Shown: one piece after another, positions 5,910 to 49,821 of the stretch
Position numbering within the stretch: position 1 is the first letter of the stretch
Layout of the letters: each line of letters starts with the position of its first letter
Source: Octopus sinensis
Lineage: Eukaryota
Assembly: GCF_006345805.1 (NCBI RefSeq)
Contig: NC_043011.1
Span: 62,880,464 to 62,944,463, forward strand
Direction of reading: 5' to 3'
DNA length: 64,000 bases
The notes under the pieces: model-generated
Seen by the model: only the letters and a program-made list of their open reading frames with translations
Told to the model about the DNA's origin: nothing
Databases searched by the model: none
Translations under genes and position numbers: made by a program

Positions 5910-6698
5910 TAACAAAAAGGGTTCAGCAAAGATTTGCTTCACCACACACCGAAGTTTAGAAATAGCAGCCAAAAATCTTAGCTATTTCTTCTATTTTAAA
6001 AGGGGTTCTCCTGGAGAAACCAAAATACTTGAAGATAATTCACACAAGCAGAGAGTAAAGCAACGAAAATCAATCAATATCTGGTTATCCATGGACGCGC
6101 GTTTCTGAATTAGGTTTTGCATAAAGAATATAAAATTATACTTTACTAAACATATTTTTCATCGGCATGGCTTTCCACGATAATTCGAAGGTACTAGAAT
6201 AGTTGAACAAATCTTTCCACCAAACGGTATTAGAACAGATCAAATTCAATGTTAGCACCGCCGAATTCAAAATATGAATGAGGTTCGCTTAGCTCCCCCG
6301 CCCGCCCGCGTGTGTCTTCAAGTAAACTTCTACAGGAAAAAAATCTGCAGTTTGTTCTCTGGGAGAAAATTCTCTTATCAATAATAACAAATGGTAAAAT
6401 TAATTAATTAAGAAGTAATTAATAATTTCACCAAGTAGAATTCGGTATGAAAAAAGGACCATTTCACGGTAAGTTTAAGTAATATTAACAAAAAGGGTTC
6501 AGCAAAGATGAAAAGTAGAAGAAATAGCTAAGATTTTTGGCTGGTATTTCTAAACTTCGGTGTGTGGTGAAGCAAATCTTTGCTGAACCCTTTTTATTAG
6601 TATTACTTAAACTTTCCGTGAAATGGTCCTTTTTTCATACCGAATTCTACTTGGTGAAATTATTAACTACTTCTTAATTAATTGATTTTACCCTTTGG

Positions 6699-6703
<5 letters not shown>
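5908..6703. mobile_element. Non-coding hammerhead-bearing inverted-arm element (retrozyme/PLE-pLTR-like)
   Basis: The direct repeat aacaaaa(a)gggttcagcaaagat occurs at about 5911 and 6487 (period about 577 bp). 6511-6703 is an inverted copy of 5908-5993 plus 6380-6490. (TA)n flanks both sides. Confidence 0.75.
6089..6170 (-). ncRNA. Variant or degenerate type I hammerhead ribozyme
   Basis: Minus strand: ccatg-CCGATGA-[53 nt, poorly paired helix II]-GAAA-cgcgcg-TC-catgg. Helix I and a palindromic helix III are present. Confidence 0.6.
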
Positions 6704-6761
<58 letters not shown>

Positions 6762-6812
6762 ATATACATATACGTATGTACATACATATATGTCTTTATA
6801 ATATATATATAT

Positions 6813-8080
6813 GAAAAAACAAGTCAAGATAGAAAATGCTAAAATAATTTTATAAAGAACATTTCAGTACCGGTTTCGGACATTTTGAGACCTTTTCAAC
6901 TGTAACGATTAAATAATTAAATTTAGAAAAATTAAAAGAAAAGTAAAAAAAAATTTTTGTATAGTGTTCAAATATCTGCCTTGCTCTGTCTCTCTTGTTT
7001 GCACTTGTGTGTTCGAGGTCCTTGTGAATTCTTGGTAGGGTAGAAGAAGAAGAAGGATGATGAGGAGAAGGGGTGGAAAAATTTGGGAGTGCCTTGATTG
7101 TCGTATTTTGAATGATCAGTTGCAGTTCAATTCAGGAGAATATTTCTATTGAAAGGTTTGTTTATAGAATTTATAGAAAAGCATTGGTGATAAAGTTAAG
7201 AAGTAGAAGGTGGAGCAGAAGAAGAAGAAGAAGAAAAAGAAGAAGAAGAAGAAGAAGAAAAACATGATGATGACGATGTTGATGATGATGATGAAGAAGA
7301 AGAAGAAGGAGAAGAAGAAGAAGATGATGATGATGATGGTGGTGATGATGATGACGACGATGATGAAGGAGAGGATGAAGAAGAAAGAGAAGGGAGAATA
7401 TGAATGAGTGGAAGTAGTGAGGTGTTGTATGACTTGAAGTTGGCACGTTATGGATTATAGCTGTGATTGGGGATGATTTGTAATGGATCATTTGGAATGT
7501 AATATTTGCGTGTGTATTTGTGTTATTCTAAAGCTTGGGTGTATAAATCGTTTGTCGTAGACCCGTTAAGAAGTGGCCTGTATTTTGTAATAAAGAGAGT
7601 TTCTTTACTTATTCGTTGTCTCGAGGTTGTATCGTCCCTGAATTGGTAGAAGGGTAAAATCCTGAAGCCTGGTGTTTTGTTGTTGGCGCAAGTATCTATG
7701 TGTTGGCTGAAAGTTATTTTTCTGTTTTAAGGAATTTTTATCTGGGATCTGTGCAGGGCCATTCTTTTACGCAAACTATTTTTTGTTTGGCCTATGTACT
7801 GCTCTTGACATAATGAGCAGGTTTGTGTGTATATCAGGTTCTCCGAAGCACATGTGAAGTTGCTTTTCACTGTAAACCGTTGTCCCTGTTTGAAGGAGAA
7901 CTCTGATCCCTCAATTAGATAATCGCATATCCCGCAATTGGGTCTTCCACATTTTTTTACTGTCGGCTTCTGTGTTGAAGAGTGTATTCGGGTTTGTGCT
8001 AGGGAGACTTTTCATAGATGTAGGCTGCCTCTTGGTTTTTATGATCGTGTATGTTTTATGATCGTGCGTGTTTTATGATC

Positions 8081-13432: not shown

Positions 13433-14710
13433 CGAGGGGCGTTCAATAAGTAATGCCCCTGACCCACTTCCCATAGCAGTAGAGCAACGAAACTTGGCAC
13501 ATGTATTAGTCTTTTTCTACATAGGAACAACCCAGAGGTACGCATTTCTCCCATCGTTTGATGCAGTTCTGGAGACCGTTTTCGTAGAAGACCCCAGCTT
13601 AGTCCTCCAACCACGACGTGACTTCAGAAATCAAGGCTGCATCATCTGGGAAACGCTTTCCTTTCAAAAATAACTTCATGGCTGGGAAGAGGTGAAAATC
13701 AGAGGGTGCAAGGTCAGGAGAGTAGGGGGATGTGGGAAGAGTGCATAGCCATACGCCTGTGCTTCTGATCTGGCGACACGCGAGTTGTGGACCGGAGCGT
13801 TGTCCTGCAGGAGGAGGATGCCTTTGCTGATCTTGCCCCGCCTCTTGGTTTCGATAGCTTCTCTTAATTTCCTCAAAAGTGAAGCATAATAGGCTCCTGT
13901 AATTGTGGTACCCTTTGCCAAGAAATCTGTCATCACTACTCCGTCCTGGTCCCAGAAGACTGTGAGCATGACCTTGCCAGAGGAGGGCTGCACCCTTGCC
14001 TTCTTTGGAGTAGGTGAGTCATGGTGCTTCCACTGCATTGACTGGCCTTTGGTCTCTGGATCATAGCGATGGACCCAGGTCTCATCCTGTGTAATCAGTC
14101 TTTTGAAAAATTTTGACTCATCTTCTTGGCATATCCCTAAATTCTTGCTTCTGGAATTCTTGCGTTCTTGCTTCTGGAAAGGTGTGAGCAACCTGGAAAT
14201 CCATCTGGCAAACACTTTTTGCATATGCAAATGGTCATGAATGATAGTTTCCACAGACCCAGTACTAATCTTGACCTCATGAGCTATTTGGCGAATAGTT
14301 ATGCGTCGATCTTCCAAAATGGCAGCCTCAACTTGACGGACAGATGCCTCATCAATGGCAGAAGGGGTGCGACCAAATCTGGGAGCTGTTTCCACAGAGT
14401 TCCGACCATGTTTGAATTCACGATGCCAGCGTTTTACAAGGTCATATGATTGGGCATCATCACCATAAGTTACTTTCATTTCAATAAAAGTCTCCTGTGG
14501 TGTGCGTCATTTCAAATACAAAAACCTGATCACTGCTCGACACTCAACATGCTCCATTTCCCACTTGACTCATTTCAAACACCTGTAAATCAGAAACCAC
14601 AATTAGTTCGGAGCTGTAATTTGCCACTTAATCTATAGAGATATCAATAATTGCACATGTAAAATTTCAGCTAGATCAAACAAAGGCAAGTGGAAATTGA
14701 ACGCCCCTCG
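13433..14710 (-). mobile_element. Full-length mariner (DD34D-type) transposon
   Basis: TIRs cgaggggcgttcaat.. / ..attgaacgcccctcg with TA on each side; about 1.28 kb; transposase inside. Confidence 0.97.
13520..14557 (-). pseudogene. Mariner transposase pseudogene
   Basis: MEHVECRAVIRFLYLK* precedes ORF 13676-14479, which contains WISRLL, ITQDETWV..QSMQW and LLQDNAPVH. A frameshift after HPP puts YSPDLAPSDFHLF out of frame. The 3' coordinate is approximate. Confidence 0.9.
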
Positions 14711-28150: not shown

Positions 28151-29553
28151 ATGTTTTTTATTAGCCACACAGGACTGCACACAGACAGGAAAGATTACAA
28201 AGTAGAGCTTTTTTTTTTTTAAAAAAATAAAAGGTGGGGTAGGTTTTCGATCAAAAGGGATCGTAAAAGGGAAAGAAGAGAAAAAAAAGGAAAAAAGAAA
28301 AGAAACAAAAGAAGAGAAAAAAGAAAAACGAAAAAAAAACGATCAATAGGAATCGTGTATCACAGTGTCATGATGTAAGGTGTAAAGGAGGAAGCAGATA
28401 AGGATTATCCGTGGGAAGAAAAGCCTACGGAAAAAGACTACGGTAACTTCGGTCAATATTGTTACATGTTACTACATTTGTTTGCAAGTAGGTAACCCTC
28501 TGTTTTATATTTCCGGGTTCATAGGATTATGCTCAAGGTCGCTTCGTCATTCACACGTGCCATCCTTGCTACATTCACCCAACATTTTTGAAACATTCGC
28601 TAGACAACACATGCCTCTGTACTCTCACTTTCCTTTTCAAGTGATACTTGAAGAAGTTGATGAGAGATTGACCTGAGAGGACAGTGTTTGTCTCCAATTC
28701 TCTCAGACGAGTCCACCAGATACATTCTTTCGCCATAGCCACAAGGATGATGAAAATAGCTCTTCCTTCCCGTTTGAAGGAAGGAGGCGTGACAATATTA
28801 ACGATAGACTCGTCTGATAAACCGACTCGTCTCACACGTGACAGCAGCTGTTCAAAATAAGCCCATAGGTCGGGCATTGTTGGACACTGCACGAGTGCGT
28901 GCAGAATTGTTTCGTCGCTCTGACCGCATCTCGGGCACGTCGGCCCCGTATTTCTCGAGCCGTGTCTGTAGAGTTTATCCCGAATGGGTAGCGCTTCTCG
29001 GTAGCACTGCCAGGCTAGGGATATCGGGAAGTTGTCCATGGGTCCTGGCCCGAAAGTCGTTCTGAACAGGCGGGTCAGGTATTCCTCGTCGACGTCCAGG
29101 TTCGCTCCGAGCTCGTCGTACTTCCCATCCACTAATCCCCCATAGAATGCTTGGGTTGTGTTGAAGTCACGCAAGGTCGACCCAGGACGGCAAAGTTGCT
29201 TGAGAGCAACGCGACACTCGCGGTGCCATTCGCCCTTCCTCGGCCTCTTCTTAATCCACGACTCCAGTTCGGTCATGGAGACGAGTTGTGGGAAAGCGTG
29301 CCTCACAAACGGTATCACACCTGTTCACCGTCGTCTACGTAGAGCTTGAGATATTGCAATCTCAGCGCGTGTCTATGCATCATCAACCACGGCATGCCCA
29401 GTCCTCCTTTTAACGGTTGTTGACAGCAAATGGATCGCCTGACCATCGGGACGCATCCTTTCCACAAGAAGCGAAAGAGAATACGTTCTAGTTTGGTGAT
29501 GGTAGGGTCGGGACAAGGCGGTGGTAGATGACGGGCGTGTTGTACGAGTTCGT
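28151..29553 (-). mobile_element. 5'-truncated L1-clade (Tx1-like) LINE: post-RT region, zf-RVT and 3' UTR
   Basis: KLERILFRFLWKG..CQQPLKGGLGMP, a stop, then AWQCYREALPIRDKL..CPRCGQSDETILHALVQCP (CCHC knuckle). The 3' end has taataaa directly followed by (TCTA)n. Confidence 0.9.
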
Positions 29554-41503: not shown

Positions 41504-41545
<42 letters not shown>

Positions 41546-41550
41546 TATAT

Positions 41551-43526
41551 GAAAAAAACAAGTCAAAAATAGAAAATGCTACAATAATTTTATAGTGAAC
41601 ATTTCAGTACCGGTTTCGGTCATTTTGAGACCTTTTCAACTGTAACGATTAGATAATTAAATTTAGAAAAAATAGAAGAAAAGTTTTTTTAAAGGAATAT
41701 TTCTATAGTAGTGTTCAGATATAAGTGGAATTCTGCCTTTCTCTGACTCCCTTGTTTGCACTTGTGTGTTGGAGGTCGTTGTGAATTCTTGGTAGGGTAG
41801 TAGAAGAAGAAGGCTGATGAGGAAAGGGGGTGGGAAAATCTGGGAGTGCCCTGATGGTCGTATTTTGAATGGTCAGTGGCGGCTAGCAGTCGCAGTTTAA
41901 TTCAGGAGAATATTTCTATTGAAAGGCTTGTTTATAGAATTTGCGTAGGTGTTATAATAAAAAAAAATTGGTGACAAAGTTAAGGGGTAGAAGGTGGAGA
42001 AGTAGTATAAGAAGAAGATGACGATGTTGATGATGATGATGATGAAGAAGAAGAAGAAGAAGAAGGAGAAGGAGAATGACGATGATGATGATGGTGGTGA
42101 TGATTATGACGACGATGATGATGATAATGATGATGATGAAGAAGAAGAGAAAGAAGAAGAAAAAAACAGAGAAGGGAGAATATGAATGGGTGAAAGTAGT
42201 GAGGTGTTGTATGACTTGAAGTTGGCATGTTATGGATTATAGCTGTGATTTTAGCTGTGATTAGTAATGGATTCTTTGGAATGTAATATTTGTTTGTGTA
42301 TATTTCTTTTATTCTAAAGTCGAGGTATATTAATTGTTTGTCGTAGACCCGTTAAGAAGTGGCCTGTATTTTGTAATAAAGAGAGTTTTTTTCCTTATTC
42401 GTTGTCTCGAGGTTGTGTCGTCCTTAAATTGGTAGAGGGGGAAAATCCTGAAGCTTGGTGTTTTTTGTTGGCGCAAATATCTATGTGTTGGCTAAAAGCT
42501 ATTTTTCTGTTTTGGGGAATTTTTATCTGGGATCTGTGCAGGGCCATGTGTTTACGGAAACTATTTTTTGTTTGGCCTATGTACTGCTCTTGACACCCGG
42601 AGCAGGTTCGTGAGTATATTAGGTTCTCCGAAGCACATGTGAAGTTGCTTTTCACTGTAAACCGTTGTCCCCGTTTGAAGGAGAACTCTGATCCCTCAAT
42701 TAGATAGCCGCATATCCCGCAATTGGGTCTTCTATATTTTTTTACTGTCGGCTTCTGTGTTGAAGAGTGAATTCGGGCTTGTGTTAGGAGACTTTTCATG
42801 GATTTAGGCTGTCTCTTGCTTTTTATGATCGTGTGTGTTTGGAGGATTGTGTTCATTCTGTGGTCTTTTTTTAGGAGGGGTATGTTGTGGAGGATGGTGC
42901 CGAAGGCTCTGTTATTGAGAGGGTTGTGTGTGGAGATGTATGGTAAGGCTTTTGGTTGTAAGTTTTTCTTTGATTTGGGATGTCTCAGTTTCTTGATGGT
43001 AAGTTGAAGGGCACGTTGAATGCACTTGTCAATAAGTGAAGGTGGATAGTTCCTGGTGATAAGGGTATCTTTTAGTTCTTGTAGTCGTGTGTCTCTGGTG
43101 TTTGCGTTAGAGACTATAGTGCATATCCTTTTTGCTAGGTTGAAGGGGATATTCATCCTGGTGTGTCTGGGGTGGCATGAATTGAATGGAAGATATTGCT
43201 TAGAGTCTGTGGGCTTATAATATATGTCTGTTTCTATTATATTATTAGCTTTCTTAATGAGGATATCGAGGAAGGGGAGTTGTTGCTGGCTATATTCCAT
43301 CGTGAATTGGATGTTTACGTCCAGTCCGTTTAAAATTTCCTGGAATTCTATGAGTTTTTCTATATTTTTATGCCAAAGAATGAAACAGTCATCTAGATAT
43401 CTCTTCCAGTTGTTTTCTATGTAGATGGAGAAAGGGCTGCCATATCTTTCTAGAACCTTACGATACAGACTGATCTCTAGATATCCTACGACTAGGTTGG
43501 CAAAGGAGGGGGCCATTCGTGTACCC
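41551..43526 (-). mobile_element. Penelope-like retroelement, 5'-truncated (RT C-terminal half, GIY-YIG and 3' end)
   Basis: Contains ORF 42395-43528 and a 3' region shared with 6813-8086. Flanked by (TA)n. Confidence 0.95.
41605..41642 (-). ncRNA. Minimal type I hammerhead (U3-A8 variant) in the PLE 3' end
   Basis: cag-TTGAAAA-ggtc-tcaaaat-gacc-GAAA-ccgg-TA-ctg. Helix II is perfect, helix III is the palindrome ACCGGT and the triplet is GUA. Confidence 0.78.
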
Positions 43527-43528
43527 AT
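42395..43528 (-). pseudogene. PLE reverse transcriptase / GIY-YIG endonuclease ORF fragment (377 aa)
   Basis: MGTRMAPSFANL, WKRYLDDCF, LPFLDILI, YYKPTD..SCHP, CGIC, then FTCASENLIY..CSGCQEQYIGQT. It is truncated at the N-terminus and frameshifted near the C-terminus. Confidence 0.93.
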
Positions 43529-43541
43529 ATATATATATATA

Positions 43542-43585
<44 letters not shown>

Positions 43586-43638
43586 TCCTAGTTTCAGCTC
43601 AGAGCTGCGGCCAAGCTAATGCACCGCCGTTATATATG

Positions 43639-47281: not shown

Positions 47282-48534
47282 TTCGTCTTCATTTTCGTCG
47301 TCATTCCTTACTCCCATCATAATCATCATAAATCATAATCGCTTATAATTGTCCCCTATTTTAGAATGCCCCACCCACCAAATGAATAAATTAATAAATA
47401 AATAATTAGATAAATAAAAACGAAAGGCAAATTTGACATGATTTGAACACTGTGTGTCAAGAACTGACACTCTTTTACTTTCGTTTAAGAAACATTACGT
47501 CATAACATTAACAAGAAGTGTTATTTCATAAGAAGTTAGAATTGCAATCTTTAACTAACTTCCTAACTTTTTCACCTTCTCAACAAACAATTCGATAATT
47601 TTCTAATACTCGTAGATTTTAAGGGAAAGAATCGGAACAGAAACTTAATAAACGCTTGAAAGGTCTTTCTTTTTTTTCCGTGTGTTAACGGAAACTATTT
47701 AGTTTATTTTGGTGGGATGCTTTTAAATTGCCTTCAGAAGTTCATGTCTTCAAATAATTAGTGTTCTGGAATTAGAAGAGAATTGCTGCTATTCTAAACC
47801 ACATGAGTTTTTGTTTAAGCTTTTAATTTGAAAGTAGAATATTTTTACGGTAATGAAATTAAAAAGGTAATCATTTTCTTGCGCTTTTTAACTAAAGAGT
47901 TAAAAATAAGGAAGCGTTTCTGTTAATTCTGTTAATGGCAGCACGTTATGTCATGTGCTTCAGAAGTATGCTACGCTACTTTGAGATTCGTGGTTCATTT
48001 CGTGAGATCTTAGGCAGGCGTTTTCCAACATTTCGTGGAATAAAACCTTTTGCGCAGAAGTCAGTTGACAAGAAGCGATGTGGAACGCCATGCTTGTGTT
48101 TGAGTGAGTCATAATCCGTAATTCGATTTTTACATCCACGTATTTAATGAGGCATATCCATGTATTTAATGGAGTTTACTCTATAGCCAAACCGACCTAT
48201 CTGAGTACTAACTTGTACAGTCTTCCCACTAGAATCGGAGGCTCTGCATAAAAACTTTTAAAACATGGAAAAAGTAGATTCTTATATTCCTTTTGTGACT
48301 GAGCCATACAAACCAACAACAATTAAAAGAGCAGGACTATTATTTCTGGAAGAACAATTAAAATATACGTAAAGTATACTAGCCATCTCAATATAGCTAA
48401 CCACTAAGGGTGGGTGTTACTGTAGCTTTTAGCCCCATGAGATCATCGTCTCCAGCTGGCTTTAGGCTCACTTTCTGTGCCCTTATGGTATTTGCAAAGG
48501 GAGGTAATCCCTCTCTCGTAAACCTAAGTGATAC

Positions 48535-48577
48535 GCACGGACTTCAGTTTCGAGGTATTTGCCTCTTGTCAACGTAC
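48535..48577 (-). ncRNA. Type I hammerhead ribozyme (U3-A8 variant)
   Basis: gtacg-TTGACAA-gagg caaata cctc-GAAA-ctgaag-TC-cgtgc. Confidence 0.8.
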
Positions 48578-48830
48578 GGCAATCACCGGTTTTCGATGAA
48601 GGAAGACCTGTTTGCAAATATTTATTTATTGTTTTTCCCAGTTACTTCCGTCACTGATTTCGAAAAACTGTCTGCAAGCGATAATAAATCTCTGAACGAG
48701 ATGTAAACAGTAACCACTCAACAACGTAAAGTATAATAGCCATCTCATTATGGCTAACCACTAAGGGTGGGTGTTACTGGAGCTTTTAGCCCTAGGAGAT
48801 CATCGTCCCCATGGAAAACCGGTGATTACC

Positions 48831-48873
48831 GTACGTTGACAAGAGGCAAATATCTCGAAACTGCAGTCCGTGC
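48831..48873 (+). ncRNA. Type I hammerhead ribozyme (U3-A8 variant)
   Basis: gtacg-TTGACAA-gagg caaata tctc-GAAA-ctgcag-TC-cgtgc. Helix III is palindromic, with predicted GUC cleavage after 48868. Confidence 0.85.
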
Positions 48874-49821
48874 GTATCACTTAGGTTTAAGAGAGAGGGA
48901 TTACCTCCCTTTGCAAATACCATAAGGCACAGAAAGTGTGCCTAAAGCCAGCTGGAGACGATGATCTCCTGGGGCTAAAAGCTACAGTAACACCCACCCT
49001 TAGTGGTTAGCTATATTGAGATGGCTATTATACTTTACGGTGTCGAGCGGTTACTGTTTACATCTCGTTCAGAGATTTATTATAAATTAAAAAATATTTA
49101 ACAGGCAAAAAATGCAAAATAATTTTAAAATCGCGCAAGTCTGTTTTAATTACAGAAAATTATACCCAGGTATTCGATTTATGATTACAGACCAGCTTAT
49201 GAGAAATTTCATCCTCACACTTTGAAATAGATTTTATTGCTATTTTTATGACATTCTTGCCATTCTTTTTAATATTCATTAAATCCATTTCTGTCCAAGA
49301 ACACAATAACGGTAGAGTGTATCTTCATCGCAGAGGTCACGTCATAGTGGAATCGATTAGTAACGCAGAACTGTGGCATACGTAAAATTACTAATCAATA
49401 TTGATTCATACGAAGTCGGTAGGCTGAGAGAAATTATATGAAGGACTTAAGAATGGTGAATTGGCTGATTCTGTAGAATATCAAGCCAAATGTGATGCGG
49501 CATTTAATGAGCGCTCATAACGCTCTTAGAGAAGATGCGCGGTGAGAACGTTTCAAGATGATAGTTTCGATTCCTGGAGCGGGTTGGGCGTTATGTTCCT
49601 GGGCAAAACATTCATTTTCCCATTGCTGCAGTCCGCTGAGTTGTACATAAGAGACCATGCAGCGGTTTAGGGGCAACTTTGTGATGTCGGTCACTTATAG
49701 GCTATGAGAGCTTGGGTCGGGAATCGCATATGTCCTAGAAGTTACTAACCTCAGGCTCAGATTAAATCCTGCCGGGGCCATCTTTGACGCTCGCCGTTTC
49801 CTCTGTTGATAAAACGAGTTT

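What the first reader, a model, noticed from the sequence alone, without database searches (positions are those of the whole stretch)
48368..49083. 357 nt retrozyme-sized monomer in a head-to-head arrangement with ribozymes on both strands
The left arm is about 1.2 units on the minus strand and the right arm about 0.75 unit on the plus strand with a different endpoint. Each carries a compact U3-A8 hammerhead. The arms differ by scattered substitutions, from age or from two different RNA templates. A read-through transcript would form a duplex of more than 200 bp.
Basis: partly seen in the sequence, partly recalled or inferred. Interest (0 to 1): 0.75.

Follow-up and report, generated by a model that had tools for sequence, protein, structure and literature searches.

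The report
Ribozyme retroelement inserted head-to-head
This is one old insertion of a 357-base non-coding mobile element whose two inverted arms each carry a hammerhead-ribozyme motif with a rare compensated core; its layout matches the known insertion pattern of Penelope-like retrotransposons, which likely copied it in, so it is an instructive but ordinary member of a known class.

Summary
Window 48368-48811 holds 1.24 units on the minus strand and 48810-49083 holds 0.77 unit on the plus strand of a 357-nt repeat. Each arm carries one type-I hammerhead motif with a UUGACAA (U3-A8) core. Rfam does not detect it, but 115 copies from four sister subfamilies in this 2.7 Gb genome support the fold: 90.8% of cells are paired against 18-50% in slid controls. 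The core 3-8 pair covaries as C-G, U.G and U-A.

The head-to-head layout is a family trait. In 46 loci of this subfamily, 23 are inverted composites, and all 54 opposite-strand junctions across the four subfamilies are 5'-to-5'. Inner junctions vary. One outer end stops at unit position ~357 and the other carries a 32-50-nt "tail". Variable target-site duplications flank the whole composite, and targets are AT-rich.

This is the published insertion architecture of Penelope-like elements (PLEs). PLEs are very abundant in this genome, and one lies 5 kb away with its own U3-A8 hammerhead. It is not a TIR DNA transposon.

Each arm has only one ribozyme, so this locus cannot release a unit-length RNA. 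Cleavage, expression and the autonomous partner remain untested. It is a new member of a known kind.

The parts
48356..48367 (.). Left copy of the imperfect target-site duplication (AATTAAAATATA)
   Evidence: It matches the right flank AATTAAAAAATAT apart from a 2-nt length difference. The DNA is AT-rich and low in complexity, so this single case is weak; the family-wide statistics carry the argument.
48368..48724 (-). Full 357-nt unit of the left arm (unit positions 1-357); the outer end stops at position 357 (...CTTTACG)
48725..48811 (-). Upstream 5'-truncated partial unit of the left arm (unit 271-357), head-to-tail with the full unit (pseudo-LTR-like partial tandem)
   Evidence: (92% identical to 48368-48454, spacing 357).
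48523..48593 (-). Hammerhead motif of the left arm with the helix I extension. The minimal motif is 48534-48578, with predicted cleavage after C17, between 48540 and 48539. This copy has a private change that makes loop III ACUGAAGU, which is not palindromic.
48809..48814 (.). Inverted junction. The arms overlap by 2 nt (48810-48811) inside CCATGG.
48810..49039 (+). Right arm, a 5'-truncated unit (unit positions 127-357)
48815..48885 (+). Hammerhead motif of the right arm. The minimal motif is 48830-48874, with predicted cleavage between 48868 and 48869. Loop III is the palindromic ACUGCAGU, and helix II has one G.U pair.
49040..49083 (+). 44-nt 'tail': the unit runs on past position 357 into positions 1-44 and ends at ...GATTTATTAT. 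It is present at this end only.
   Evidence: PLE tails are described in PMC8557442 and PMC3846280 (passages read).
49085..49097 (.). Right copy of the imperfect target-site duplication (AATTAAAAAATAT)

Best explanation
Window 48368-49083 is a single insertion of a 357-nt non-coding, hammerhead-bearing repeat (a non-LTR retrozyme-type element), flanked by one imperfect target-site duplication, that was likely made by the reverse transcriptase/endonuclease of a Penelope-like element (PLE).

Shown:
- The two arms are 5'-truncated at different unit positions and face each other 5'-to-5'.
- One arm is a partial tandem.
- Only one outer end carries a ~44-nt extension.
- The same rules hold across the family, and the hammerhead fold is conserved by compensatory changes.

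Inferred:
- A PLE endonuclease made a staggered break in AT-rich DNA.
- cDNA was primed on retrozyme RNA from both nicked strands. One cDNA started at unit position 357 and the other about 44-48 nt further on.
- The two cDNAs were joined in the middle through 0-10 nt of microhomology.
- I put this twin-priming detail at about 0.5 on its own.

The DNA cannot tell whether the template was a circle, a multimer, or linear units joined by template jumps.

After insertion both arms decayed by about 2-3% each. With one ribozyme per strand the locus cannot release a unit-length RNA. If it were transcribed through, it would form a ~230-bp hairpin.
For: Architecture of subfamily A (46 unique loci: 30 from the unit search, which favours loci with an uninterrupted unit, and 16 more from the exact 34-nt ribozyme pattern):
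- 23 of 46 loci are -/+ composites and none is +/-.
- Subfamilies B, C and D give 17, 9 and 5 head-to-head junctions against 0 tail-to-tail.
- 7 of 7 opposite-strand pairs among the 68 exact pattern hits are -/+, with 0 hits for the reversed control pattern.
- Inner junction positions differ between the arms in 22 of 23 composites. The gap or overlap at the junction runs from -10 to +32 nt.

Outer ends:
- 16 of 23 composites are scored as '357 plus tail' with the 40-nt HSP filter.
- The 4 scored '357/357' have tails of 32-38 nt in the unfiltered lists, giving 20 of 23.
- The other 3 have a tail plus a longer extension (63-81).
- 0 of 69 scored ends lie at the predicted cleavage site, unit position 185/186.

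Target sites:
- The duplication score is >=8 in 26 of 46 loci, against 29 of 230 mismatched-flank controls.
- Flanks are 78.6% AT against 64.8% in DNA 600-900 nt away. (TA)>=4 lies within 30 nt of an end in 19 of 46 loci, against 9 of 92 control segments.

One source lineage: arms of one locus share non-majority variants at 38 of 3847 columns, against 226 of 74457 for arms of different loci.

Ribozyme (alignment of 115 segments, 87 distinct):
- 90.8% of cells are paired, against 18.3-50.3% when slid.
- 127 cells have a change on both sides, against <=18 when slid and 39.9 +/- 9.7 when shuffled (0 of 500 shuffles reach it).
- The 3-8 pair reads CG 38, UA 33, UG 14, other 2.
- Per subfamily the core is UUGACAA in 46 of 56 (A), UUGACGA in 22 of 24 (B), CUGAGGA in 8 of 25 (C, with 12 not parsed by the regex) and CUGAUGA in 8 of 10 (D).

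PLE context:
- The window ORF 42395-43528(-) has 202 longer homologues, and the listed ones are 664-817 aa and carry PF00078 and/or PF01541.
- The endonuclease domain has 15211 first-look candidates in the genome, with open frames up to 784 aa.
- 6 of 6 PLE pairs within 6 kb in that list are -/+.

Literature (passages read): PMC8557442 and PMC3846280 describe partial tandems, an adjacent inverted 5'-truncated copy, a 30-40-bp tail at one end, target-site duplications and AT-rich or (TA)n targets. PMC4209133 reports U3-A8 hammerheads in Schistosoma PLEs and dual motifs on opposite strands.
Against: - No sequence similarity links the unit to the one abundant PLE family examined: best E 0.46 in the window, and only chance neighbours or microsatellite hits in 30 plus 8 PLE loci. 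The partner is unidentified.
- Rfam's hammerhead models do not score the motif, and cleavage is untested.
- The window's own target-site duplication is imperfect and sits in low-complexity AT-rich DNA.
- In 0 of 19 loci is the partner arm the nearest relative of both arms.
- In L009 and L026 the two arms carry different core subtypes, so some composites used two source lineages or arose in two events.
- Among genomic copies the ribozyme span is no better conserved than the rest of the unit: 144 of 4190 non-majority cells against 602 of 17113.
- The covariation cells come from four subfamilies, so they represent few independent events.
Confidence: 0.78

Rival explanations
1. The same one-event PLE-type insertion, but made by a single reverse transcriptase. 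It copies sense RNA starting from position 357, then continues on an antisense RNA (or self-primes). The tail end would then be run-off at the 5' end of an antisense transcript and not a second priming site. This differs from the best explanation only in how the inverted arm is made.
For: PMC3846280 (Discussion passage read) argues from the prevalence of head-to-head junctions and junction palindromes that PLEs may self-prime on an antisense template. This would explain why exactly one end carries the tail (20 of 23 composites). It would also fit the CCATGG at the window junction.
Against: Simple snap-back copying of the first arm is excluded: the arms start at different unit positions in 22 of 23 composites. 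No antisense RNA or promoter has been shown. Five of 23 single-orientation loci also end in a tail, which under this model would need insertions made from antisense RNA alone.
Confidence: 0.3
2. Two independent insertions of the same family, in opposite orientation, into one AT-rich hot spot.
For: Targets are AT-rich or (TA)n hot spots. L009 and L026 have arms of different core subtypes. In 0 of 19 loci is the partner arm the nearest relative of both arms.
Against: All 54 opposite-strand junctions are head-to-head and none is tail-to-tail, whereas independent hits should give both. Target-site duplications flank the composite as a whole. Arms share rare variants 3.3 times more often than unrelated arms. 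The arms abut with -10 to +32 nt between them and no target DNA in between.
Confidence: 0.06
3. A DNA-level origin: a TIR or foldback DNA transposon, or a palindrome formed by replication template switching within a satellite array.
For: The long inverted arms are 94-97% complementary, and the outer end sequences recur.
Against: The arms are unequal and their inner ends vary. 23 of 46 loci have one orientation only. The two outer ends are not reverse complements of each other (position 357 against position ~48). Target-site duplications vary in length from about 8 to 26 bp. No transposase is associated; the only DDE fragment in the window is a mariner-like ORF 34 kb away.
Confidence: 0.03

Closest known systems
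Metazoan non-LTR retrozymes (Cervera and de la Pena 2020, PMC7229834; sections and passages read), especially the ~350-390-bp mussel repeats
   Same: A short (357 nt), AT-rich (42% GC), non-coding repeat with a type-I hammerhead: helix I of 6 bp, helix II of 4 bp, and a 2-bp helix III capped by a palindromic loop. It has thousands of copies and target-site duplications longer than 4 bp, and it coexists with PLEs.
   Different: The core is U3-A8, not C3-G8. Copies are mostly dispersed, 1-2 units long and often inverted, not long tandem arrays. That paper does not use the word 'inverted' (0 occurrences). No circular RNA or cleavage data exist for this family.
Penelope-like element insertion architecture (Arkhipova et al. 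2013, PMC3846280; Craig et al. 2021, PMC8557442; passages read)
   Same: 5' truncation, a partial tandem (pseudo-LTR), an adjacent inverted 5'-truncated copy placed head-to-head, a short tail at one end only, a target-site duplication around the whole insert, AT-rich or (TA)n targets, and a hammerhead in the repeat.
   Different: There is no RT/GIY-YIG ORF, so the element is non-autonomous. The tail is 32-50 nt, against the 30-40 bp reported. No sequence similarity was found to the ends of the PLE family examined.
U3-A8 minimal hammerheads of Schistosoma mansoni PLEs (Cervera and de la Pena 2014, PMC4209133; passages read)
   Same: The same compensated core pair. Motifs occur on opposite strands 100-700 bp apart. 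Helix III is palindromic, which implies action as a dimer.
   Different: Here the motif has full-size helices I and II and sits in a retrozyme-type unit. Sister subfamilies in one genome show all three states: C-G, U.G and U-A.
Dimeric hammerheads of newt satellite 2 (Forster et al. 1988, seen only as cited in PMC4209133)
   Same: A weak helix III whose palindromic loop can pair between two motifs. Here the inner pairs covary as GC 36, CG 22 and AU 12.
   Different: A different sequence and host. Activity was not assayed here.
L1 twin priming (recalled; no call)
   Same: Two cDNAs primed from the two strands of one staggered break, giving an inverted insertion inside one target-site duplication.
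   Different: In L1 the inverted part comes from an internal region of one polyadenylated RNA. Here both outer ends are 3' regions of the unit.

Membership tests
Hammerhead ribozyme, type I | Conserved core: C3 U4 G5 A6 N7 G8 A9, G12 A13 A14, A15.1-U16.1, H17 | tested here: met
   Both arms read U U G A C A A / G A A / A...U / C. Positions 3 and 8 are changed together to U and A. The 3-8 pair across 87 distinct sequences reads CG 38, UA 33, UG 14, other 2.
Hammerhead ribozyme, type I | Three helices around the core, kept by compensatory change; helix I open | tested here: met
   19 pairs, 90.8% of cells paired against 18-50% when slid, and 9 pairs with changes on both sides. Example pairs read AU44/GC36, AU52/GC29 and AU72/CG12. 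The cells come from four subfamilies, so the number of independent events is small.
Hammerhead ribozyme, type I | Match to the curated Rfam hammerhead models | tested here: not met
   No hit at gathering score on the window or at E<=10 on 48200-49250. The U3-A8 core and the 2-bp helix III are the likely reasons (inference).
Hammerhead ribozyme, type I | Self-cleavage after position 17 | not testable with these tools
   No assay was possible, and the runs laid were contigs without read ends.
Metazoan non-LTR retrozyme | Type-I hammerhead inside a 150-450-bp, low-GC, non-coding repeat without LTR, PBS or PPT | tested here: met
   The unit is 357 nt and 42.3% GC. The longest stop-free stretch in the locus is 101 aa, and no ORF of 150 aa or more overlaps it. 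PBS and PPT were not searched for explicitly.
Metazoan non-LTR retrozyme | Tandem copies, so that two ribozymes flank a unit that can be released and circularised | tested here: not met
   At this locus there is one motif per strand. Elsewhere in the family two same-strand motifs one unit apart do exist, for example C5:19033433 and 19033786 and L016 and L040.
Metazoan non-LTR retrozyme | Expression as linear and circular RNA | not testable with these tools
   No run on record as RNA holds the stretch. The contigs laid show neither ends nor strand.
Metazoan non-LTR retrozyme | Coexistence with autonomous PLEs | tested here: met
   an RT plus GIY-YIG ORF in the window, and 15211 first-look candidates in the genome.
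PLE-type insertion (non-autonomous PLE derivative) | Variable 5' truncation, partial tandem, and an adjacent inverted 5'-truncated copy placed head-to-head | tested here: met
   23 of 46 loci are composites, and junctions are 54 head-to-head against 0 tail-to-tail.
PLE-type insertion (non-autonomous PLE derivative) | [quoted passage not shown] | tested here: met
   The window tail is 44 nt (49040-49083). 20 of 23 composites have one plain end and one tailed end.
PLE-type insertion (non-autonomous PLE derivative) | Target-site duplication of variable length around the whole insert; AT-rich or microsatellite targets | tested here: met
   26 of 46 loci against 29 of 230 controls; AT 78.6% against 64.8%; (TA)n in 19 of 46 loci.
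PLE-type insertion (non-autonomous PLE derivative) | Sequence shared with the pseudo-LTR or 3' end of an autonomous PLE in the same genome | tested here: not met
   None was found for the one abundant PLE family sampled. Other PLE families were not sampled.
TIR DNA transposon / MITE | Constant terminal inverted repeats, fixed-length target-site duplication, constant internal structure | tested here: not met
   The outer ends are not each other's complement, the inner junctions vary, the duplications run from 8 to 26 bp, and half of the loci have one orientation only.

The most novel reading that the evidence does not exclude
Animal retrozymes integrate with the complete Penelope signature: an inverted 5'-truncated copy, a one-sided tail, a variable target-site duplication and (TA)n targets. 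This is direct structural evidence that PLE machinery mobilises them, starting cDNA at fixed internal sites and never at the ribozyme cut. In addition, four sister subfamilies in one genome record the hammerhead's catalytic 3-8 pair moving from C-G through U.G to U-A while each kept amplifying to thousands of copies. That means the ribozyme core is under selection for propagation and tolerates the wobble intermediate.
Probability: 0.45. Interest if true: 0.6.

Novelty: new member of a known kind. Interest (0 to 1): 0.45.

Why it matters
That animal retrozymes depend on PLEs has so far been argued from two lines:
- co-occurrence of the two element types;
- pseudo-LTR similarity in frogs (PMC7229834, PMC7761336 and preprint 10.64898/2026.07.22.740005; abstracts, sections and passages read).

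None of those three texts mentions an inverted or tail-type insertion signature for retrozymes. Term counts: 'inverted' occurs 0 times, 1 time (in the reference list only) and 1 time (that passage was not displayed); 'head-to-head', 'tail' and 'opposite' occur 0 times wherever they were searched. A further search found no paper linking retrozymes with head-to-head arrangements.

The family here gives that missing structural line of evidence. It also offers a natural series of core variants (C-G, U.G, U-A) that could be assayed directly.

For annotation, it warns that such loci are neither MITEs nor assembly artefacts. It also shows that hammerheads with a covarying core escape Rfam.

Tried and rejected
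- **Rfam.** The gathering scan of the window and the permissive scan of the locus gave no hammerhead. The only hit was a chance c-di-GMP match at E 6.1.
- **Plain CUGAUGA search.** No match in the locus; 14 matches in the window against 10.3 expected.
- **RNA evidence.** No RNA holder is listed.
- **Four runs guessed to be RNA.** They gave only short contigs confined to 48358-49083, with no ends, strand or unit-junction information, so nothing can be said on expression or circles.
- **Three larger runs.**
  - Contigs crossing the left junction (47900-48385 and 47900-48392) and the right junction (49063-49600 and 49056-49600) appear under organism labels B and D.
  - The right junction (49056-49600) appears under label C.
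  - No empty-site contig was listed.
  - Summed depths are not copy numbers.
- **Nearest-neighbour test of the arms.** The partner arm was closest for both arms in 0 of 19 loci. The family is nearly star-like, so the test has little power, and I replaced it with the shared-rare-variant count.
- **Purifying selection on the ribozyme among genomic copies.** None seen: 0.034 against 0.035 non-majority cells. Of the 46 loci, 16 were picked by an intact ribozyme pattern, which biases the count towards conservation, and still none appears.
- **Local Pfam scans of the PLE-like ORF.** They gave 0 families. Its identity rests on motifs read and on precomputed domains of homologues.
- **Search for a parent PLE.** Unit against the masked window, against 30 PLE loci and against 8 further loci with long open frames: no shared ends.
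- **Earlier notes of this scan.** Nothing on record.
Full report
**1. What is there**

The window holds a direct repeat with a spacing of 357 nt (48367-48454 and 48724-48811, 92% identical). It also holds three inverted-repeat segments that are 94-97% complementary.

I took the reverse complement of 48368-48724 as the unit. On that basis the left arm 48368-48811 is unit 271-357 followed by 1-357 on the minus strand, or 1.24 units. The right arm 48810-49083 is unit 127-357 followed by 2-44 on the plus strand, or 0.77 unit. The arms align with 222 identical columns.

Each arm holds one copy of a motif that reads as a type-I hammerhead:
- helix I: CGUACG/CGUGCG, with an outer extension
- core: UUGACAA
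- helix II: GAGG/YCUC
- then GAA, helix III AC(UGNA)GU, and C17

The 34-nt pattern is expected 0.00 times in shuffles of the window. Rfam does not report it at gathering score or at E<=10. A read-through RNA of the whole locus is predicted to fold into a ~230-bp stem (-482 kcal/mol, z -43.8).

**2. The family**

The window lies in a 2.7 Gb genome of 13516 contigs. The unit has at least 3370 first-look candidates there, and the listed copies are 93-96% identical to it. The exact 34-nt ribozyme pattern occurs 68 times, against 0 for the reversed control.

I analysed 46 unique loci. Thirty came from the unit search, which favours loci with an uninterrupted unit. Sixteen more came from the ribozyme pattern, which favours an intact ribozyme but is blind to architecture.
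- Twenty-three of the 46 are inverted composites, always with the minus-sense arm on the left and the plus-sense arm on the right, so the 5' ends face each other.
- The inner ends vary widely (unit positions 1 to 314) and differ between the two arms in 22 of 23 composites. The arms abut with -10 to +32 nt between them.
- The outer ends are regular. An arm stops either at unit position ~355-357 (...CTTTACG) or runs on for another 32-50 nt (...TTATTGCT).
- With the 40-nt filter, 16 of 23 composites have one end of each kind. The four scored otherwise have tails of 32-38 nt in the unfiltered lists, giving 20 of 23. The last three have longer extensions.
- None of the 69 scored ends lies at the predicted ribozyme cut, unit position 185/186.
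- In the less biased set, 13 of 24 arm starts fall at unit positions 6-70. I cannot explain this.

**3. One event per composite**

- **Target-site duplications.** They flank the whole composite. The score is >=8 in 26 of 46 loci, against 29 of 230 controls pairing the left flank of one locus with the right flank of another. Lengths run from about 8 to 26 bp.
- **The window's own case.** AATTAAAATATA against AATTAAAAAATAT is imperfect and AT-rich, so it is weak on its own.
- **Target composition.** Flanks are 78.6% AT against 64.8% in DNA 600-900 nt away. (TA)n of four or more repeats lies within 30 nt of an end in 19 of 46 loci, against 9 of 92 control segments.
- **Nearest-neighbour test.** The partner arm is the nearest relative of both arms in 0 of 19 loci.
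- **Shared rare variants.** Arms of one locus share rare variants at 38 of 3847 columns, against 226 of 74457 for arms of different loci.
- **The window locus.** Its arms share 2 rare variants and carry 3 and 5 private ones over 230 columns. The scattered differences are best read as decay after one insertion from one source lineage.
- **Exceptions.** In L009 and L026 the two arms carry different core subtypes.
- **Age.** Contigs filed under other organism labels show the same left and right junctions under labels B and D, and the right junction under label C. No empty-site contig was listed. The insertion is therefore not private to the assembly.

**4. The ribozyme is a conserved structure**

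Three PLE loci happened to contain relatives of the unit at 62-78% identity. Searching with them showed three further subfamilies:
- B: 2004 candidates, 94-96% identity
- C: 2751 candidates, 82-90% identity
- D: 2916 candidates, 78-84% identity

An alignment of 115 ribozyme segments (56 A, 24 B, 25 C, 10 D; 87 distinct rows) was scored against the fold read from the window copy.
- 90.8% of cells are paired, against 18-50% with the partner slid.
- 127 cells have a change on both sides, against at most 18 when slid and 39.9 +/- 9.7 when shuffled (0 of 500 shuffles reach it).
- The catalytic 3-8 pair reads CG 38, UA 33, UG 14, other 2.

The core heptamer per subfamily is:
- A: UUGACAA in 46 of 56
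- B: UUGACGA in 22 of 24
- C: CUGAGGA in 8 of 25, with 12 not parsed
- D: CUGAUGA in 8 of 10

The more diverged subfamilies carry the canonical pair and the less diverged ones carry U.G or U-A. The G8-to-A8 step sits in a CpG (seen directly in the sequences). The counts are of sequences and not of events, and four subfamilies give few independent changes.

Helix III with its loop is a different 8-nt palindrome in each subfamily: ACUGCAGU, ACUAUAGU, ACUCGAGU and ACCCGGGU. The four nested pairs, including two that cannot form within one hairpin, are kept in 93.4% of cells, against at most 33% when slid. This fits the dimeric mode described for newt, schistosome and PLE hammerheads (PMC4209133, passages read).

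Among the genomic copies of subfamily A, the ribozyme is no better conserved than the rest of the unit, as expected for copies that decay after insertion.

**5. Link to Penelope-like elements**

Five kilobases from the locus, the ORF 42395-43528(-) reads YLDD ... CX2C ... NLIYSRTCSGCQEQYIGQT.
- Local Pfam scans find nothing.
- It has 202 longer homologues. The listed ones are 664-817 aa and carry RVT_1 and/or GIY-YIG domains.
- It is therefore the C-terminal part of a canonical endonuclease-bearing PLE.
- A few of those homologues carry source names from bivalves or bivalve-associated bins. That is only a weak hint at the host group.

About 750 nt downstream on the same strand lies a minimal hammerhead-like motif, again with a U3-A8 core (UUGAAAA) and a palindromic CCGG, followed by (TA)n.
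- The motif is present in 27 of 30 sampled PLE loci and in 6 of 8 further loci.
- It is about five times better conserved than the rest of that 3' region: 14 of 1322 non-majority cells against 1066 of 19617.

The endonuclease domain has 15211 first-look candidates in the genome, some in open frames of up to 784 aa. The six pairs within 6 kb in that list are all -/+. I found no sequence similarity between any retrozyme subfamily and the ends of this PLE family, so the autonomous partner is not identified.

**6. Comparison with what is known**

Craig et al. 2021 and Arkhipova et al. 2013 (passages read) describe PLE insertions with these features:
- 5'-truncated partial tandems
- often an inverted 5'-truncated copy at the 5' side
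- a 30-40-bp tail at one end only
- one target-site duplication around the insert
- AT-rich or (TA)n targets

The window locus has every one of these features except the ORF.

Cervera and de la Pena 2014 report U3-A8 hammerheads in Schistosoma PLEs, and dual motifs on opposite strands 100-700 bp apart. Cervera and de la Pena 2020 define animal non-LTR retrozymes, including ~350-390-bp mussel repeats, and propose PLEs as their mobilisers. A 2026 preprint supports this from co-occurrence and pseudo-LTR similarity in frogs.

None of the three retrozyme texts mentions an inverted or tail-type insertion signature (term counts). A further search found no paper that links retrozymes with head-to-head arrangements.

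**7. Mechanism**

I commit to a single PLE-type target-primed reverse transcription event at an AT-rich site.
- Shown: the anatomy and its regularity.
- Inferred: that a PLE enzyme did it, and that the two arms are cDNAs primed from the two nicked strands.

An alternative for that last step is one enzyme that continues on an antisense template, as Arkhipova et al. suggested for PLEs. The data exclude only simple snap-back copying of the first arm, because the arms start at different positions.

Because no insertion end lies at the ribozyme cut, cDNA synthesis did not start at a ribozyme-generated 3' end. The DNA cannot tell whether the template was a ligated circle, a multimer, or linear units joined by template jumps.

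**8. Verdict**

The locus itself is an aged, inert copy. It has one ribozyme per strand, and the left one carries a private change that breaks the palindrome, so it cannot release a unit-length RNA. What is worth keeping is the family-level evidence for PLE-type integration and the natural C-G / U.G / U-A series in the catalytic core.

Noticed in passing
window 41545-43615 (-) and about 6650-8050 (-): Two 5'-truncated copies of an endonuclease-bearing Penelope-like element. The first keeps a 406-aa stop-free frame (RT motif C to GIY-YIG). The copies are 83% identical over 1382 nt, and each ends in a U3-A8 minimal hammerhead-like motif (41602-41639 and 6862-6899, minus strand) followed by (TA)n.
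   Followed up: partly
L062-L090 (PLE loci of G000): The 52-nt PLE 3' hammerhead motif is about five times better conserved than the rest of the 3' non-coding region: 14 of 1322 non-majority cells against 1066 of 19617. This suggests selection on it in the propagating lineages.
   Followed up: partly
G000, genome-wide: The PLE endonuclease domain has 15211 first-look candidates, some within open frames of 780-784 aa. The six pairs within 6 kb on one contig are all -/+ (head-to-head).
   Followed up: no
L023, L024, L027; one arm each of L009 and L026 (rows A39 and A51-A56 of alignment A3): A minor lineage on the subfamily-A backbone has the core C(C/U)GA(A/G)GA and helix II CAGG/CCUA. Several copies have C at position 4, which should disable a hammerhead, yet the lineage reached at least three loci. 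In L009 and L026 the two arms of one composite are of different lineages.
   Followed up: no
alignment A3, subfamilies C and D: The first pair of helix II (10.1-11.1) is C.A in many copies of C and D and U-A in others (ACGGG against ATGGG, a CpG site), whereas A and B have G-C or G.U. That pair is unpaired in 35 of 87 distinct rows.
   Followed up: no
16 pattern-derived loci among L031-L060: Arm starts cluster at unit positions 6-70 (13 of 24), so many arms are just under one full unit. This could reflect a preferred template 5' end or a stop after one turn of a circular template. It remains unexplained.
   Followed up: no
window 47900-49600 in runs X18, X19, X20: The same insertion junctions occur in contigs filed under organism labels B and D (both junctions) and C (right junction; 18 differences over 545 nt of mostly flank). 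The insertion is therefore shared across these labels.
   Followed up: partly
window 13676-14479 (-) and 28575-29318 (-): A mariner-type transposase fragment (PF01359, E 7.9e-24) and an ORF with a zf-RVT domain (PF13966, E 5e-08). The window is rich in decayed mobile elements.
   Followed up: no
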